Of a DNA stretch of 64,000 bases, positions 3,983-22,666 are shown piece after piece. The stretch is from Promethearchaeota archaeon (lineage in GTDB: Archaea > Asgardarchaeota > Lokiarchaeia > Sigyniarchaeales > SOKP01): assembly GCA_016839705.1 (NCBI GenBank), contig JAEOTR010000041.1, positions 50,251 to 114,250 on the forward strand, in the 5' to 3' direction. The stretch's first letter is position 1; each line of letters opens with the position of its first letter. Position numbers and translations under genes: made by a program. A model generated the notes under the pieces. The model did not search any database. It was not told the DNA's origin and worked only from the letters and a program-made list of their open reading frames with translations.

Positions 3983-4987
3983 TTGATGACTAGCACTGTA
4001 ATTGAAAAAGTTAACAACTTGTTAAAAAAGGCTAATTTTGAAACCTTTGTTTTAGGAAATTTTGCCACAAAGACGAGTAAATTTTGTTTTGATTTATTAG
4101 GAAAAAAGGATGATGTAGTGTTTAGTGTTAAAGTTTTTTCTAACATAGATAACATAAATCCCGAAGTAATTCAAGATATCAAATCACTTTCTCTGATATT
4201 AAAGTCTAAACCATTATTGATAGGATTGAAGAACCGATATCAAAAATTAGAAGATAATACAATATACGTAAGAGATGGATTACCTTTCATAACCGTTAAC
4301 ACGTTCGAGAATATTCTAAATAACAATATCTTTCCATATGTTTTAGCTCGGAGAGGTGGCGGCGTAATATTTCTGAATGGATTTTTGATGAAAAAAATAA
4401 GAGAAGAACATTCAATAACAAGAAAAGAGTTATCAGAACAATTAGGAGTAGCTAAGAGAACTATTAGTGCCTATGAAAATGAAAGTATGCGTCCATCGGA
4501 GGAAATGGCAGAAAAAATTCTAAGCATCTTAGAAAATAATGAAATTTTCAAAAAAATAAACATTTTCAAATGGAAAATTAAATACGACATGGATGCCCAA
4601 GAAATTTCTGAAGAAAAAGAGTTAAGTGAATTTGAATCGCATATAAAAACAATTATTGATGATATAGGATTATCGTCTTATTGGTATAAAAAAGCTACAG
4701 TTCCGTTCAAATTATCATTATTTTCCTCACTTAATCAAACAAAGAATGATGGTTTTTATCCTCTCTTTTCTAACATCTCTGAAGATCAGAATAATGTTAA
4801 TGAGATGAATTTTAACAGTTTGAAAATGTTCAATGATTTATTTCATAAAACAGCGTTATATATTATCGATAATAATGTAAGAATACCCGGAGCTACTAAA
4901 AGAAAAGATATCCATGTTGTAAAAATAAAAAATCTGGAAGAAGTTAATGATGAAGAAGAATTCATCGATCTCATTCAAGATTCATAA
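3983..4987 (+). CDS. archaeal HTH transcription regulator (COG1395-like)
   Basis: CFDLLGKK...VKVFSNID N-terminal domain, ARRGG, central HTH (ITRKELSEQLGVAKRTISAYEN). Confidence 0.85.
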   Translation: MMTSTVIEKVNNLLKKANFETFVLGNFATKTSKFCFDLLGKKDDVVFSVKVFSNIDNINPEVIQDIKSLSLILKSKPLLIGLKNRYQKLEDNTIYVRDGLPFITVNTFENILNNNIFPYVLARRGGGVIFLNGFLMKKIREEHSITRKELSEQLGVAKRTISAYENESMRPSEEMAEKILSILENNEIFKKINIFKWKIKYDMDAQEISEEKELSEFESHIKTIIDDIGLSSYWYKKATVPFKLSLFSSLNQTKNDGFYPLFSNISEDQNNVNEMNFNSLKMFNDLFHKTALYIIDNNVRIPGATKRKDIHVVKIKNLEEVNDEEEFIDLIQDS

Positions 4988-5000
4988 GGAGAAATAAAAT

Positions 5001-5690
5001 TTGATCTGCGGTATTGACGAGGCTGGTAGAATATAATCTATCTCGGATTATATACCAAAAGGCCCCGTAATTGGTCCTCTTGTGTTATGTGGAGTTTGCT
5101 ATAAAGAATCCAATTTATCCTATTTAGAGCGGATTGGCGTAAAAGACTCTAAAAAATTAACTGCCAAAAGGAGGAGAATTTTAGCTAAATTAATAAAGGA
5201 ATCGTGCCATTCATTTAAAATAATTGTCGTTCCTCCCCGAGAAATTGATGAAAGGGAAGAAAAAAGAATTACTCTGAATAAACTCGAGGAATTAAAAATG
5301 GCTGAAATTATTAGAGAATTAAAACCTGATACTATCTATATTGACGCAGTTGATGTAAATGAAGAAAGATTTACCCAATCAATCCTAGACCTCTTAAATT
5401 ATAGCCCAAAAGAAATTATTTCAAAACATAAAGCTGATGACCTATTCCCTATTGTATCTGCGGCTTCAATTATAGCAAAAGATAAAAGAGATGCATTAAT
5501 TGAGGAATTAAAGGAAAAATATGGAGATTTCGGCTCTGGATATCCCTCAGATTTAAGAACCACAGATTTTCTTCGGGAATATATAAAGAAAAAACAAAAA
5601 ATACCCCCCTACGCGAGAAAAACATGGGATACAATAAAGAAAATAGTGGATGAAGAATTAGGAAACAAAAAAATAACCGATTTTTTCTAA
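5001..5690 (+). CDS. rnhB: ribonuclease HII, two exons (5001-5029 and 5060-5690), 219 aa after splicing
   Basis: AAGGAGA SD, then TTG ATC TGC GGT ATT GAC GAG GCT GGT AGA (MICGIDEAGR), a 30-nt insert, then GGC CCC GTA ATT GGT CCT (GPVIGP). Downstream KDSKKL, SAASIIAK, GSGYPSD and C-terminal PIP-like KKITDFF. Confidence 0.93.
5030..5059 (+). other. 30-nt bulge-helix-bulge intron in rnhB mRNA
   Basis: Central helix TGGT(5024-27)/ACCA(5054-57), bulges AGA and AAA, inner stem ATATAATC/GATTATAT. Cutting after the 2nd nt of each bulge restores AGA GGC. In-frame TAA at 5034-36. Confidence 0.88.
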
Positions 5691-5692
5691 GT

Positions 5693-6385
5693 TTATCGTT
5701 TTTTCACTAATAAAACAATATGATTTGCTGCGTATTTATGAATGTTAATGCTTTCAATAATTTTATATCCCCTGTTTTCAAGAATTTTCTTTTCTTGGGC
5801 ATAGATATATTCAGATTTTTGGACACTATCAATAGATTGAGATTTGACTGCTAAAACTAATAATCCTTTCTCGTTTAGATAATAATTACTATTATCTATA
5901 GCTATTTCTGCTTGGTTAGGTTGAGAAACATCCTGATAAATTAAATCTATTTTTGAAAATATTGATTTTGCATATTCATCTGGATATCGAGCATCAGCAA
6001 AAATGGGAATAACATTTTTCCTTCGAGAGGTATTTTGTATTAACTGCCGAATGCTTCTTTCTGCAAATTCAACACCATAAATTATACCGTTCGTCAGTAT
6101 ATCAGAAAGATGAGAAATAGTAGTGCCAGAAGAAGCTCCTAAATATAAACAGCTTAAATCGTCGGATAGAAAATTATTAATTGGATTTTCCAATATTAGA
6201 GCTGCCAGTTTACTCCGAAATGGGTCCCATTCCCTATATTCATTTTCTTTATATTCGAGCAACCGTTCTCCATAAACTCTATTTCCTTTATCTCTGTTTC
6301 TTGTATAAAGTCTCAATTTTTCTTTGGATCCAGATGTGAAAACATTGCAAAATTTAGGATGATTTTTTATTTCAATTTGTGACAT
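5693..6385 (-). CDS. flpA: fibrillarin-like rRNA 2'-O-methyltransferase
   Basis: VYGERL, EYREWDPFRSKLAA, LYLGASSGTTISH, YQDVSQPNQ. Confidence 0.96.
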   Translation of the reverse strand: MSQIEIKNHPKFCNVFTSGSKEKLRLYTRNRDKGNRVYGERLLEYKENEYREWDPFRSKLAALILENPINNFLSDDLSCLYLGASSGTTISHLSDILTNGIIYGVEFAERSIRQLIQNTSRRKNVIPIFADARYPDEYAKSIFSKIDLIYQDVSQPNQAEIAIDNSNYYLNEKGLLVLAVKSQSIDSVQKSEYIYAQEKKILENRGYKIIESINIHKYAANHIVLLVKKR

Positions 6386-6396
6386 GCTTTATCACC

Positions 6397-7599
6397 TTAT
6401 CTTCTCTTTTTTGGCTTCTTTTTCTTTCCTTTAACAGGCTCTTCCTTTTTAGGTGGATTTGGATATTTAATTTCGATTTCGTTTATTTTAGATTCAATTT
6501 CTTTTGCTAGCTTATCTCCTATGAATTCACCGTTAAAATAATCGAGTTTAGCAGCAACTCCAATTTTCCCTGCGACTATTCGAGCAATTTTTCCACGATG
6601 ATATGATTTTGCTGACCTTATTTGATTCCATTGGAATATTAAACCATGTTTTGGGCGTTTCTCTCCCGTTTTGAGAAAACGATAAAGAGCTTTTTCAGCC
6701 CCTAACAATTGTATTCTTGATGCTGGCATAAAAGCCAGTTTTTTCATACTACCTGCTTTGGCGATAAGTTTAGCTCCGATTAATGCTCCGATAATAGCAT
6801 TTATGTTGGGGGCAATCTTTTCCATTATATCTGCTAGATTAATTTCTAAATCTTGTCTATACGAGTCTATAGAGATTATTTGATTTGCATAATCTTTAAC
6901 CATTCCTAAATCAAAATCCGCTCCCATTGAATCTGAAGCAAATTTCTGCAAAATTCGAATTTTTTTCTCTCCAAGTTCAAAATGTTTTATTAGATTTTCG
7001 TAAGTATATCTCTCCCTTGCTCCTAAAGTAGAAACCATTTTTGCTAAAAGAATGTTATCTTCAATAATCTTATCGGTTAATTCTGGAAAATATAAACCAT
7101 ACCATTCTCTGAGTTGACTTGAAAATAAACTTATAGATTTTTTAAGTATATCTAGAGTACCAATGATCTGAATAATTAAATTATCAGAATGACCACTTTC
7201 TTCTCTTACTTTTTTCTTGGTTAATTCCTCGTTGATTATTTTATATTGTGCGAGAATTTCATCTTTCCTTTTAATTATTCCTATGTTTTTTAATTGAGTT
7301 TCTAAATTGAGACGAAAATTTTTAAGTTCAAGTGAATCACTTTCTAAAAGTATACCATATCCTAATTGTTTTGTTAGTGTATGTAATTGTTTATTATCAA
7401 ATACAAACTCTTCAAATCCAGAATTCTTCAATTCAGATAAAAACTCTTTGTATTTACTCTGAATGATACCTTTATCAATATCAATATAGAATTGAATAAT
7501 TTTCTGGGTATCATTTTCAAAATCAATAAAATTCAAAATGGTTCCAGTTTCATCAAAAGCGAAAATCCCAACTAAAGTATCTGCTATATATGACTTCAT
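6397..7599 (-). CDS. nop5: C/D box snoRNP protein Nop5 (Nop56/58)
   Basis: LREWYGLYFPEL, PASRIQLLGAEKAL, PKHGLIF, RGKIAR, Lys-rich tail. Confidence 0.95.
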   Translation of the reverse strand: MKSYIADTLVGIFAFDETGTILNFIDFENDTQKIIQFYIDIDKGIIQSKYKEFLSELKNSGFEEFVFDNKQLHTLTKQLGYGILLESDSLELKNFRLNLETQLKNIGIIKRKDEILAQYKIINEELTKKKVREESGHSDNLIIQIIGTLDILKKSISLFSSQLREWYGLYFPELTDKIIEDNILLAKMVSTLGARERYTYENLIKHFELGEKKIRILQKFASDSMGADFDLGMVKDYANQIISIDSYRQDLEINLADIMEKIAPNINAIIGALIGAKLIAKAGSMKKLAFMPASRIQLLGAEKALYRFLKTGEKRPKHGLIFQWNQIRSAKSYHRGKIARIVAGKIGVAAKLDYFNGEFIGDKLAKEIESKINEIEIKYPNPPKKEEPVKGKKKKPKKRR

Positions 7600-11105: not shown

Positions 11106-11252
11106 TTAAGATTTCTAAATTCCTAGAGTATTGAATAGTCTGAACTTGAAAAGTTATTAACTTACATTTAAAAAATTATGTTTTTTTATAAGTTAATATA
11201 CAAAAAGTTACATTATATTTTTGTGTCTAAAAAATAGGGTTATGGGTAAAAA

Positions 11253-12323
11253 ATGACATCAACAACAAAAAAAACTTCTCAACAAACAATTTCGATAAGT
11301 CCTAAACTTAAAGAACGAATTGAAAAATATGTCACGGCAAACCAACAGAAATTTCCAAAAGATAATAGGTTTAAAAGTATTTCTGCTTTTTATACCAGCG
11401 TGATGGAAAAGGTATTGGATAGTTTTGAAAAAGGTAAAACTCTTGATGATTTTGAAAGCTTTGTGGATAGTGATATTAAAGATTTTTTCGAGAAAATCTC
11501 CTTTAATGGGCTTATTCCGTATTACGAGGATGCAATTATAGCCAATAGATACCAAACTACTACTCTTGAAAGAAATCCTTTTTTCTACTTCACACTGAGA
11601 AGGTTCTATACATCAAGAATGGACCCCTATGATATTAAGAGCATACAATCCGTGTTCGATAGAGTTAGAAATTATATTCTTTCAAATAATCTTACTAAAG
11701 AATTCAGGTTAGATATTTTCTCTGGAAAAGGTGAAAAAAATCTAACGGCGGTTTTTGAACAAGCAGGTTTACATCAAAATTTATGTTTTGAGAATTTCAA
11801 ATTTTCGGCAGCACTTTTCGGCTTATTAGGCGCAAAAATTACTAATTATCTATATTCCAGAAAAAATAATTATTGTAGATTTGATCTAAAAACTACAGAT
11901 TTATTTTATCGAAAAGAGCTTTTAAAAAGAGAAAGGATCAAGCTAATGGAAGATAACTTATCCCATTTTATAAATTATAATAGAATAGTAGAAGATAAAG
12001 ACTTTTTCCTATGGATGAAGATAGCGAGAGATAAGAATGCTTTCATATCGTTTACTAATGATGAAACTAAACAAGAATGGGTAAACTTAATAGAAAGCGA
12101 AATTGAACAATTTGGGGATGAAGATGATTATCATCTTAATATACTAAGGCTTTTTCAGAGACTTCATTGGATCGAAATTGAAAATGAGAAAGAATTGTTA
12201 TTCCGAATTATACTACCCACATCTACAGACCAAAGTAATATCGATTATTTATTAGAAACCCTTTCAAAAAAGGTAGAAATTATAATAAACAATGGTAAAT
12301 ATCAATTAAAAAAAAGGAAATGA
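11253..12323 (+). CDS. hypothetical protein with N-terminal ribbon-helix-helix-like region; paralog of 12663
   Basis: QQTISISPKLKERIEKYV...FKSISAFY; collinear similarity with the next gene. Confidence 0.75.
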   Translation: MTSTTKKTSQQTISISPKLKERIEKYVTANQQKFPKDNRFKSISAFYTSVMEKVLDSFEKGKTLDDFESFVDSDIKDFFEKISFNGLIPYYEDAIIANRYQTTTLERNPFFYFTLRRFYTSRMDPYDIKSIQSVFDRVRNYILSNNLTKEFRLDIFSGKGEKNLTAVFEQAGLHQNLCFENFKFSAALFGLLGAKITNYLYSRKNNYCRFDLKTTDLFYRKELLKRERIKLMEDNLSHFINYNRIVEDKDFFLWMKIARDKNAFISFTNDETKQEWVNLIESEIEQFGDEDDYHLNILRLFQRLHWIEIENEKELLFRIILPTSTDQSNIDYLLETLSKKVEIIINNGKYQLKKRK

Positions 12324-22559: not shown

Positions 22560-22569
22560 GGAATAATAA

Positions 22570-22643
22570 CGGGCTATGAGGGAATCGAACCCCCGACCGT
22601 CAGGTTAAGAGCCTGCTGCGCTACCTGCCTGCGCTAATAGCCC
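22570..22643 (-). tRNA. tRNA-Lys(CTT), no intron
   Basis: GGGCTAT/ATAGCCC acceptor, GCGC D-stem, CT-CTT-AA loop, GGTTCGATTCC T-arm. Confidence 0.93.
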
Positions 22644-22666
22644 AAATAATATGTCCAATGAAAATG

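What the first reader, a model, noticed from the sequence alone, without database searches (positions are those of the whole stretch)
5001..5081. BHB intron inside a protein-coding gene, splitting the RNase HII active-site motif
Seen: after an AAGGAGA SD, TTG 5001 reads MICGIDEAGR, then 30 extra nt containing an in-frame TAA (5034-36), then GPVIGPLVLCG. The insert folds into an archaeal splicing motif: 4-bp helix TGGT/ACCA, bulges AGA and AAA, 8-bp inner stem ATATAATC/GATTATAT. The exon-exon outer helix is imperfect: one C-G pair in the 3-nt-bulge register, or GGC/GCC plus ACG/CGT if the second bulge is 4 nt. Cutting after the second nt of each bulge removes 5030-5059 and gives exactly DEAGR-GP. 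Established: EndA cuts BHB motifs at these positions; DEAGRGP carries catalytic acidic residues of RNase HII; archaeal mRNA introns are rare, the cbf5 intron of Crenarchaeota being the classic case. Inference: this archaeon needs tRNA-type splicing to make RNase HII, since unspliced mRNA yields an 11-aa peptide. Gene callers miss this and call a catalytically dead truncated ORF at 5082.
Basis: partly seen in the sequence, partly recalled or inferred. Interest (0 to 1): 0.95.

Follow-up and report, generated by a model that had tools for sequence, protein, structure and literature searches.

The report
tRNA-type mini-intron splitting Asgard rnhB
The only RNase HII gene of this Asgard archaeon is broken inside its catalytic motif by a 30-base insert shaped like the introns archaea cut out of tRNAs, and comparison with over 130 related genomes indicates it is spliced out of the mRNA, which papers report for one other archaeal coding gene (cbf5).

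Summary
In the window, TTG 5001 opens MICGIDEAGR. A 30-nt insert follows (5030-5059, in-frame TAA at 5034-36), then GPVIGPLV... of RNase HII (Pfam E 1.9e-41).

The insert has bulge-helix-bulge (BHB) geometry: a 4-bp helix, two 3-nt bulges and a 9-bp inner hairpin. Cutting after the second base of each bulge restores DEAGR|GP.

It is neither an artefact nor gene decay:
- Contigs from two samples carry it.
- 83 of 135 genomes of the same family carry it at the same codon.
- Lengths are 28, 29, 30 and 31 nt, plus 26 nt in a Bathyarchaeia.
- 91.6% of cells in the proposed structure pair (24-46% in shifted controls), and 9 pairs show compensatory changes.
- Exon dN/dS is 0.08-0.18, and the gene is single-copy.
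- Close relatives lack the insert precisely.
- The genome encodes an EndA closest to crenarchaeal heterotetramer alpha subunits, and RtcB.
- Three other genes of this genome (EF-2-like, mevalonate kinase, NifU) carry similar mini-introns.

No RNA data exist for this lineage, so splicing is inferred, not shown.

This scan has noted rnhB BHB introns before on other genomes. I found no published report beyond cbf5 and a Haloferax 5' UTR intron.

The parts
4986..4992 (+). Shine-Dalgarno-like AAGGAGA, 8 nt upstream of the TTG start
   Evidence: Read directly. The closest relatives have ATG, TTG or GTG at the same codon, after an in-frame TAA.
5001..5029 (+). rnhB exon 1: MICGIDEAG plus the first two bases (AG) of the Arg codon. 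It carries the catalytic Asp and Glu.
   Evidence: In 38 aligned relatives, the aligned last 17 nt of exon 1 (5013-5029) varies only at third codon positions. It corresponds to residues 1-11 of T. kodakarensis RNase HII, which exon 2 lacks.
5030..5059 (+). 30-nt BHB mini-intron, with an in-frame TAA at 5034-5036
   Evidence: Relatives that lack it lack exactly this stretch.
5060..5690 (+). rnhB exon 2: the last base of the Arg codon, then GPVIGPLV... to the TAA stop
   Evidence: Pfam RNase_HII 1.9e-41, profile positions 9-198. It aligns to residues 12-209 of T. kodakarensis RNase HII and keeps the Asp105 and Asp135 equivalents. dN/dS is 0.08-0.18.
5019..5023 (+). Outer (exon-exon) helix h, 5' strand. 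It pairs with 5061-5065 and is imperfect in this genome (3 of 5 pairs).
   Evidence: 88.8% of cells pair across 38 sequences. There are no compensatory changes, because both strands are coding.
5024..5027 (+). Central 4-bp helix H, 5' strand (TGGT, in exon 1)
   Evidence: 94.1% of cells pair. Pair 5024/5057 occurs as U-A, A-U and C-G. Pair 5027/5054 occurs as U-A, U.G, G-C and C-G and is never unpaired.
5028..5030 (+). Bulge 1 (AGA). The predicted 5' cut lies between 5029 and 5030.
   Evidence: In L050 and L138 the bulge is AGT, so only this cut restores Arg.
5031..5053 (+). Inner hairpin h': 9-bp stem (5031-39 with 5045-53) and 5-nt loop (5040-44)
   Evidence: 7 of 9 pairs show changes on both sides, and 91.8% of cells pair.
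5054..5057 (+). Central helix H, 3' strand (ACCA, in the intron)
5058..5060 (+). Bulge 2 (AAA). The predicted 3' cut lies between 5059 and 5060.
   Evidence: Positions 5058-59 vary (AA, GT, AT, AG, AC, CA). Position 5060 is a purine in 38 of 38 sequences, as needed for an AGR Arg codon after joining.
5061..5065 (+). Outer helix h, 3' strand (in exon 2)
5082..5690 (+). Truncated 202-aa ORF that gene callers report. It lacks the Asp-Glu of the active site.
   Evidence: Protein P0001.

Best explanation
Positions 5030-5059 are an archaeal bulge-helix-bulge (BHB) intron inside the rnhB coding sequence.

Proposed mechanism:
1. The pre-mRNA folds so that exon-1 bases 5024-27 pair with intron bases 5054-57. 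This helix is flanked by two 3-nt bulges and a 9-bp intron hairpin.
2. The tRNA-splicing endonuclease EndA cuts after the second base of each bulge (5029|5030 and 5059|5060).
3. RtcB joins the exons, and probably circularises the 30-mer.
4. The joined mRNA encodes a full RNase HII with the DEAGRGP motif and all four catalytic acidic residues.

Shown here:
- the structure and its covariation;
- conservation of the exact site;
- precise absence of the insert in relatives;
- selection on both exons;
- presence of the enzymes.

Inferred: the cleavage and ligation themselves.
For: 1. Geometry and reading frame fit.
2. The same site is interrupted in every same-genus rnhB recovered (23 of the 24 sampled genomes). 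A covariance model finds a full-length match in 83 of 135 genomes of the family, one per genome.
3. Covariation: 91.6% of cells pair, against 24-46% when partners are slid. Nine pairs carry double changes, against 3.9 +/- 1.2 in shuffles (0 of 500 reach the observed value). Both freely variable positions of the central helix covary with their partners.
4. Insert lengths of 26, 28, 29 and 31 nt occur. In those genomes only excision at the RNA level restores the frame.
5. The splice register is pinned. Bulge 1 is AGT in L050 and L138, and position 5060 is always a purine.
6. The gene is alive. dN/dS is 0.08-0.18. The aligned end of exon 1 (the last 17 nt) varies only at synonymous sites. There is a single rnhB in the genome.
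7. Intron-less alleles lack the insert exactly, including one whose protein is 89% identical to that of an intron-bearing copy.
8. EndA is closest to the alpha subunits of the A. pernix, S. tokodaii and P. aerophilum heterotetramers, the broad-specificity type, with a KPR loop aligned to the A. pernix one. Fifteen of 18 congeners have two EndA paralogues. RtcB is present.
9. The same genome has comparable 27-31-nt BHB inserts in EF-2-like, mevalonate kinase and NifU genes. For the EF-2-like and NifU genes both exons hit consecutive parts of one Pfam profile; mevalonate kinase rests on the motif rebuilt across the junction, since its short exon 1 gave no Pfam hit.
10. The cut rule (between the 2nd and 3rd bulge residues) is as published for cbf5 (PMC2738675).
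Against: - There is no RNA evidence. No RNA run holds this locus, and no spliced form was found in metagenome contigs or in the protein collection.
- For this sequence alone, the minimum-free-energy fold is a shifted register with a 4-nt second bulge. That register would give a 28-nt, frame-breaking excision. The folding energy is not exceptional (z -1.03). The strict BHB register was the predicted optimum in none of 37 relatives.
- In most congeners the central helix is three G.U pairs plus one A-U pair, which is weak.
- The exon-exon helix is imperfect in this genome.
- Only one EndA paralogue was found in this assembly, which is 93% complete.
Confidence: 0.88

Rival explanations
1. There is no splicing. 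The functional product is the truncated protein started downstream (GTG 5082 here, or an ATG inside the insert in many relatives), and the upstream 10 codons are a leftover.
For: Public annotation-213-aa proteins. In many congeners the 3' end of the insert supplies an in-frame ATG.
Against: - The truncated form lacks the catalytic Asp and Glu, which correspond to residues 7 and 8 of the T. kodakarensis enzyme.
- The aligned end of exon 1 (its last 17 nt) changes only at synonymous sites, and exon 1 has a usable start codon in every relative checked.
- This genome has no ATG in the insert.
- This reading does not explain the covarying helix between exon 1 and the insert.
Confidence: 0.04
2. The insert is handled by translational recoding. 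The ribosome hops over the hairpin, as in phage T4 gene 60, or reads through the stop codon.
For: There is a stop codon just after the break and a stable hairpin. Bypassing would tolerate lengths that are not multiples of three.
Against: - No matching take-off and landing codons exist: AGA before the insert, against AAA, ATA, GTA, AGG or ACG before GGC.
- Read-through is excluded by the 26-, 28-, 29- and 31-nt variants, and it would insert 10 residues into the active-site loop.
- Conservation of exact 3-4-3 geometry, and the purine at 5060, are what EndA cutting predicts, not hopping.
Confidence: 0.04
3. The gene is disrupted by a small palindromic mobile insertion (or an assembly error) and is a pseudogene, or is made as two separate peptides.
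For: The insert is a short AT-rich palindrome with a stop codon. Its presence is patchy among genera.
Against: - Contigs from two samples carry it unchanged.
- It is unique in the genome.
- It has been retained across at least 83 species-level genomes, with dN/dS 0.08-0.18 in the gene and compensatory changes in the stem.
- No second rnhB exists.
Confidence: 0.03

Closest known systems
cbf5 pre-mRNA intron of Crenarchaeota (Desulfurococcales, Sulfolobales; Watanabe 2002; Yokobori 2009, PMC2738675)
   Same: - It is a BHB-type intron inside a protein-coding gene, placed next to a catalytic residue codon.
- The predicted cuts fall between the 2nd and 3rd bulge residues.
- The BHB is relaxed and is attributed to a heterotetrameric EndA.
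- Gain and loss among related lineages is patchy.
- Gene callers mis-annotate the gene.
   Different: - The gene differs (rnhB) and the phylum differs (Asgard/Promethearchaeota).
- Splicing of cbf5 mRNA was shown by cDNA. Here it is only inferred.
- This intron has a near-fixed 30-nt architecture (1+9+5+9+4+2).
- It is one of several such inserts in the same genome.
Non-canonical BHB introns of archaeal tRNA genes (Marck and Grosjean 2003), abundant in Asgard tRNA genes (PMC11291895; bioRxiv 10.64898/2026.10.13.758758)
   Same: - The 3-4-3 bulge-helix-bulge motif is the same, with half of the central helix supplied by exon sequence.
- The size is similar, and the same enzymes (EndA, RtcB) are expected.
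   Different: - The host is an mRNA, so the exons are constrained by codons and not by the tRNA fold.
- The outer helix is made of two coding segments.
BHB intron in the 5' UTR of Haloferax volcanii HVO_1309 (PMC7714728)
   Same: It is an EndA substrate in an mRNA. It was found as a circular RNA and confirmed in vitro.
   Different: It lies in the untranslated leader, so removal is not needed to restore a reading frame. It is 46 nt long, and the host is a euryarchaeon with a homodimeric EndA.
IRE1/RtcB splicing of HAC1 and XBP1 mRNA in eukaryotes (reviewed in PMC13149111)
   Same: The splicing is spliceosome-independent, by an endonuclease plus a ligase. It removes a small intron from an mRNA, changes the reading frame or product, and uses RtcB for ligation.
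   Different: The endonuclease (IRE1) and the RNA motif (twin stem-loops) differ. It is stress-regulated. No homology of the intron is implied.

Membership tests
Archaeal BHB (EndA-dependent) intron | [quoted passage not shown] | tested here: met
   TGGT/ACCA with bulges AGA and AAA. The register holds in 38 sequences, with 94.1% of cells in the central helix pairing and covariation at both free positions.
Archaeal BHB (EndA-dependent) intron | Flanking helices: inner h' (intron) and outer h (exon-exon) | tested here: inconclusive
   h' is met: 9 bp, with 7 pairs showing compensatory changes. h is imperfect in this genome (3 of 5 pairs) and better in most congeners (4 of 5, extendable). That makes it a relaxed motif of the HBh' kind. 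Folding programs prefer another register.
Archaeal BHB (EndA-dependent) intron | Cutting after the 2nd base of each bulge yields a functional product | tested here: met
   It restores DEAGR|GP. AGT bulges in L050 and L138, and the invariant purine at 5060, fix the register. The rule is quoted from PMC2738675.
Archaeal BHB (EndA-dependent) intron | The host encodes a splicing endonuclease and an RNA ligase | tested here: met
   EndA is at G000:C56:35901-36491 (97.8 bits to PF01974; PF02778). RtcB is at C25:19832-21139 (564 bits). A second EndA paralogue was not found in this assembly but is present in 15 of 18 congeners.
Archaeal BHB (EndA-dependent) intron | The intron is actually excised and the exons ligated in RNA | not testable with these tools
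   No RNA run holds the locus. No spliced form was seen in metagenome contigs or in the protein collection.
RNase HII (Pfam PF01351), catalytically competent | Four acidic active-site residues (Asp7, Glu8, Asp105, Asp135 in T. kodakarensis numbering; this set is from my own knowledge) | tested here: met
   Met only in the spliced reading. Asp and Glu are in exon 1. The Asp105 and Asp135 equivalents are in exon 2 (alignment).
Programmed translational bypass (T4 gene 60 type) | Matching take-off and landing codons flanking the gap | tested here: not met
   The codon before the gap is AGA or AGT. The codons before GGC are AAA, ATA, GTA, AGG, ACG or ACA.

The most novel reading that the evidence does not exclude
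The rnhB insert is one member of a family of mobile, near-fixed-format (about 30 nt) BHB micro-introns. On this reading they repeatedly enter and leave protein-coding genes of Asgard archaea, and the same rnhB codon in other phyla such as Bathyarchaeia. tRNA-type mRNA splicing would then be a routine, possibly regulatory, step of gene expression in the closest prokaryotic relatives of eukaryotes.

Support so far:
- There are at least 3, and best 6, gain or loss events on the rnhB tree.
- One rnhB copy lacks the insert although its protein is 89% identical to that of a copy that carries it.
- Three other interrupted genes exist in this genome, and the EF-2-like insert has the same 1+9+5+9+4+2 layout.

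Not shown: the direction of the events (gain or loss), and any mechanism of mobility.
Probability: 0.4. Interest if true: 0.85.

Novelty: new member of a known kind. Interest (0 to 1): 0.72.

Why it matters
In the papers I could search, endonuclease-mediated splicing of an archaeal coding sequence is documented only for cbf5 in Crenarchaeota. A 2020 study still calls that the only example besides one 5' UTR intron (PMC7714728).

Here a core DNA-maintenance enzyme of an Asgard archaeon cannot be made without such splicing. The same holds in at least 83 related species, and other genes of the same genome are interrupted likewise.

Three consequences follow:
- It would show that mRNA splicing by the tRNA machinery is common in the lineage nearest to eukaryotes.
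- It would give a concrete, testable substrate (a 100-nt transcript, two enzymes).
- It exposes a systematic annotation error: public records list catalytically dead, truncated "ribonuclease HII" proteins for these genomes.

Tried and rejected
- **RNA evidence.** No RNA holder is listed for window 4700-5700. Only DNA contigs could be laid; they carry the insert and show no joint.
- **Spliced junction in JGI metagenome contigs.** There were 25 hits, all from unrelated, uninterrupted rnhB lineages (at most 63% identity to any sampled protein).
- **Spliced-form proteins in the 5.8-billion-protein collection.** All hits above about 74% identity are truncated calls. A typed junction query for the Gly-Ser clade found no matching full-length protein.
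- **Closest full-length and truncated pair.** L094 and L096 proved to be a DNA allele without the insert (it uses CGA for Arg) and one with it, not an RNA copy.
- **Rfam.** No family matches 4700-5400.
- **Folding energy.** It is not significant as evidence, and the strict BHB register is never the predicted optimum. One column of that script (H+h' only) was mis-registered and is ignored.
- **My own genome-wide BHB plus reading-frame scan.** It gave 113 candidates, against 87-102 with deliberately shifted splice sites, so the list as a whole is mostly chance. I kept only cases whose joined peptide rebuilt a known motif, and checked them with Pfam.
- **Covariance model outside the family.** It gave only weak hits. 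Those I read were uninterrupted rnhB (L133-135) or unrelated sequence (L136, L137). The model is tuned to this family, so this does not show absence elsewhere.
- **Second EndA subunit in this assembly.** Not found with Pfam or with the alpha protein as query.

Full report
**What is in the sequence**

One search shows AAGGAGA at 4986-4992 and TTG at 5001. The reading is MICGIDEAGR, then ATA TAA (stop at 5034-36). From 5061 the same frame reads GPVIGPLVLCG... to a TAA at 5688-90.

The downstream part is RNase HII: Pfam PF01351, E 1.9e-41, matching profile positions 9-198 of 199. The missing first eight positions are what exon 1 encodes. It aligns to residues 12-209 of Thermococcus kodakarensis RNase HII and keeps the Asp105 and Asp135 equivalents. 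Residues 1-11 of that enzyme, including Asp7 and Glu8, correspond to exon 1 (the identity of the four catalytic residues is from my own knowledge).

The ORF finder, and the protein collection's own record for this window, give only the 202-aa ORF from GTG 5082.

**Is it real DNA, and is it more than chance?**

- The 23-nt core of the insert occurs once in the 3.36-Mb assembly.
- Assembled contigs from two samples of one marine-sediment study cover 4800-5300 without any difference. Short contigs from a cold-seep study span the insert with a few substitutions.
- For the single sequence, the folding energy is unremarkable (z -1.03). The optimum is a shifted register with a 4-nt second bulge.

The single sequence therefore does not prove a motif. 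The comparison with relatives does.

**Comparison with relatives**

The organism is an Asgard archaeon; related records are titled Promethearchaeota/Promethearchaeia. rnhB is single-copy in this genome.

- All 23 same-genus genomes with an rnhB match have an insert between the Arg and Gly codons of DEAGRG. Three other families of the order have the uninterrupted motif.
- A covariance model built from 38 distinct sequences finds one full-length match in 83 of 135 genomes of the GTDB family, including 50 of 53 in the genus. Five further weak matches were found, four of them spanning only 30 nt like uninterrupted genes (the one I later read, G105, is not among the loci I fetched).
- In a sample of 126 Asgard genomes outside the family, the model found nothing convincing. 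It is tuned to this family.
- A protein search did find a 26-nt insert at the same codon in a Bathyarchaeia MAG (L091).

**The RNA structure is under selection**

I counted pairs on a gap-free 60-nt alignment of 38 distinct sequences, using the strict register (outer helix, 4-bp helix, 3-nt bulges, 9-bp hairpin).

| Measure | Observed | Control |
|---|---|---|
| Cells forming a standard pair | 91.6% | 24-46% with partners slid by 1-3 columns |
| Pairs with changes on both sides | 9 | 3.9 +/- 1.2 in shuffles (0 of 500 as high) |

In the central helix, the only positions free to vary in exon 1 are the third bases of the Ala and Gly codons.
- Pair 5024/5057 is seen as U-A, A-U and C-G.
- Pair 5027/5054 is seen as U-A, U.G, G-C and C-G, with no unpaired case.
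- L050 and L060 discriminate the strict register from the shifted one: 5031 pairs with 5053 in both, whereas 5028 does not.

**The splice points are pinned**

Position 5030 equals 5060 here, so two cut pairs would give the same product. In L050 and L138 the first bulge reads AGT. Only a cut after its second base, joined to the last base of bulge 2, gives an Arg codon.

The last two intron bases vary freely. The first base of exon 2 is a purine in 38 of 38 sequences, giving AGA or AGG. This is the cut position published for BHB motifs, including cbf5 (PMC2738675).

**It cannot be read-through, and the gene is alive**

- Inserts of 26, 28, 29 and 31 nt occur (L091, L139, L021, L138).
- All 30-nt inserts I translated (this genome, L047, L050, L055, L060 and the commonest type) contain in-frame stops.
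- Pairwise dN/dS of exon 2 between intron-bearing genes is 0.08-0.18, with dS up to about 1.5.
- All variation in the aligned end of exon 1 (its last 17 nt) is at third codon positions.
- Every relative checked has a usable start for exon 1. In most it is an ATG 26-27 codons upstream that overlaps the preceding gene. In this genome's subclade it is a TTG, ATG or GTG at the ninth codon before the Arg codon, following an in-frame TAA.

**Gain and loss**

On a maximum-likelihood tree of 58 exon-2 proteins, the insert needs 6 changes of state, and at least 3 are forced by well-supported branches.

One DNA contig without the insert (L094, Arg codon CGA) encodes a protein 89% identical to that of an intron-bearing copy (L096). 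Absences are exact to the base.

**The machinery**

- The genome encodes a 197-aa EndA with both Pfam domains.
- Its closest solved relatives are the catalytic alpha subunits of the Aeropyrum pernix, Sulfolobus tokodaii and Pyrobaculum aerophilum enzymes (E 1e-34 to 1e-24). The M. jannaschii homotetramer scores 4e-20. The loop YG.PL..KPR aligns with the A. pernix one. That this loop confers broad specificity is from my own knowledge of the literature, and is in line with PMC5829648.
- A second paralogue was not found in this 93%-complete assembly. It is present in 15 of 18 congeners.
- RtcB lies on the same contig, outside the window.

**Context in the same genome**

A crude scan of my own for BHB geometry plus joined reading frames is dominated by chance: 113 hits, against 87-102 with shifted junctions. 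Three hits rebuild textbook motifs and were checked with Pfam:

| Gene | Insert | Pfam check |
|---|---|---|
| EF-2-like | 30 nt; same 9-bp stem and 5-nt loop layout | exon 1 hits GTP_EFTU positions 3-35, exon 2 hits 49-187 |
| NifU/IscU | 27 nt | profile positions 2-30, then 32-125 |
| Mevalonate kinase | 31 nt, inside GK.ILFGEH|FVVYG | exon 2 hits the GHMP kinase domains |

ARAGORN finds only 18 tRNA genes in the assembly, 12 of them with introns. This is rough, but it fits published reports of heavily interrupted Asgard tRNA genes (PMC11291895; bioRxiv 10.64898/2026.10.13.758758).

**What is missing**

No RNA run holds this locus. Searches for the spliced junction in metagenome contigs and for full-length proteins of the intron-bearing clades found none. 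Splicing is therefore an inference, though I regard it as strong (0.88).

**Prior knowledge**

The papers I could search describe BHB introns in coding sequences only for cbf5 (PMC2738675). A 2020 study calls cbf5 the only example besides the Haloferax HVO_1309 5' UTR intron it reports (PMC7714728). Searches pairing RNase HII or Asgard with BHB and mRNA returned nothing relevant. The library lacks most subscription journals.

This scan's own earlier notes record rnhB BHB introns in many other genomes, and other mRNA mini-introns in this genome. I re-derived the EF-2 and mevalonate kinase cases and the EndA loop independently. I could not check the note that an RNA contig lacks the rnhB insert in another Asgard genome.

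**Verdict**

This is a new member (new gene, new phylum) of the known kind "EndA-spliced intron in an archaeal mRNA". It awaits RNA-level proof.

Noticed in passing
G000:C82:11187-11216 (locus L130:388-417), outside the window: A 30-nt BHB insert with the same 9-bp stem and 5-nt loop layout splits an EF-2-like gene at ...DSD|DEEQARGITI. The two exons hit consecutive parts of Pfam GTP_EFTU.
   Followed up: partly
G000:C85:74326-74352 (L132) and G000:C29:8703-8733 (L131), outside the window: A 27-nt insert lies in a NifU/IscU gene (Pfam NifU_N positions 2-30, then 32-125). A 31-nt insert lies in a mevalonate kinase gene inside the GK.ILFGEH|FVVYG motif.
   Followed up: partly
L091:1450-1510 (Bathyarchaeia MAG CAYWPD010000039.1): A 26-nt insert with helix CGGG/CCCG and bulges AGA/AAG sits at the same rnhB codon in a different phylum. 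Its nearest sampled relative (L067) has none.
   Followed up: partly
window 3983-4997: The upstream HTH_3 gene is a conserved neighbour in both intron-bearing and intron-less relatives, so it does not track the intron. In most congeners rnhB exon 1 starts at an ATG 26-27 codons upstream that overlaps this gene's end. Here an in-frame TAA (4995-97) cuts that off, and TTG 5001 with its own Shine-Dalgarno sequence is used.
   Followed up: partly
L007, L010, L032 and many other loci, last 12 nt of the insert: The 3' end of the insert often reads ..ATG NNA AAA GGC in frame. This is why public records list 212-213-aa 'ribonuclease HII' proteins beginning MLKGS or MPKGP.
   Followed up: yes
window 5693-7599, minus strand: A fibrillarin gene and a Nop5 gene converge on rnhB, with only 2 nt between the two stop codons.
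   Followed up: no
whole assembly G000: ARAGORN calls only 18 tRNA genes in 3.36 Mb, 12 of them with introns (some calls look spurious). Many tRNA genes are probably hidden by non-canonical introns. The window holds one uninterrupted tRNA-Lys(CTT) at 22569-22644.
   Followed up: no
window 11224-11253 (G000:C25:61474-61503): This is a weak BHB-plus-frame candidate from my scan (7-bp stem with one mismatch, low-complexity peptide). It is probably chance, given the scan's high background.
   Followed up: no
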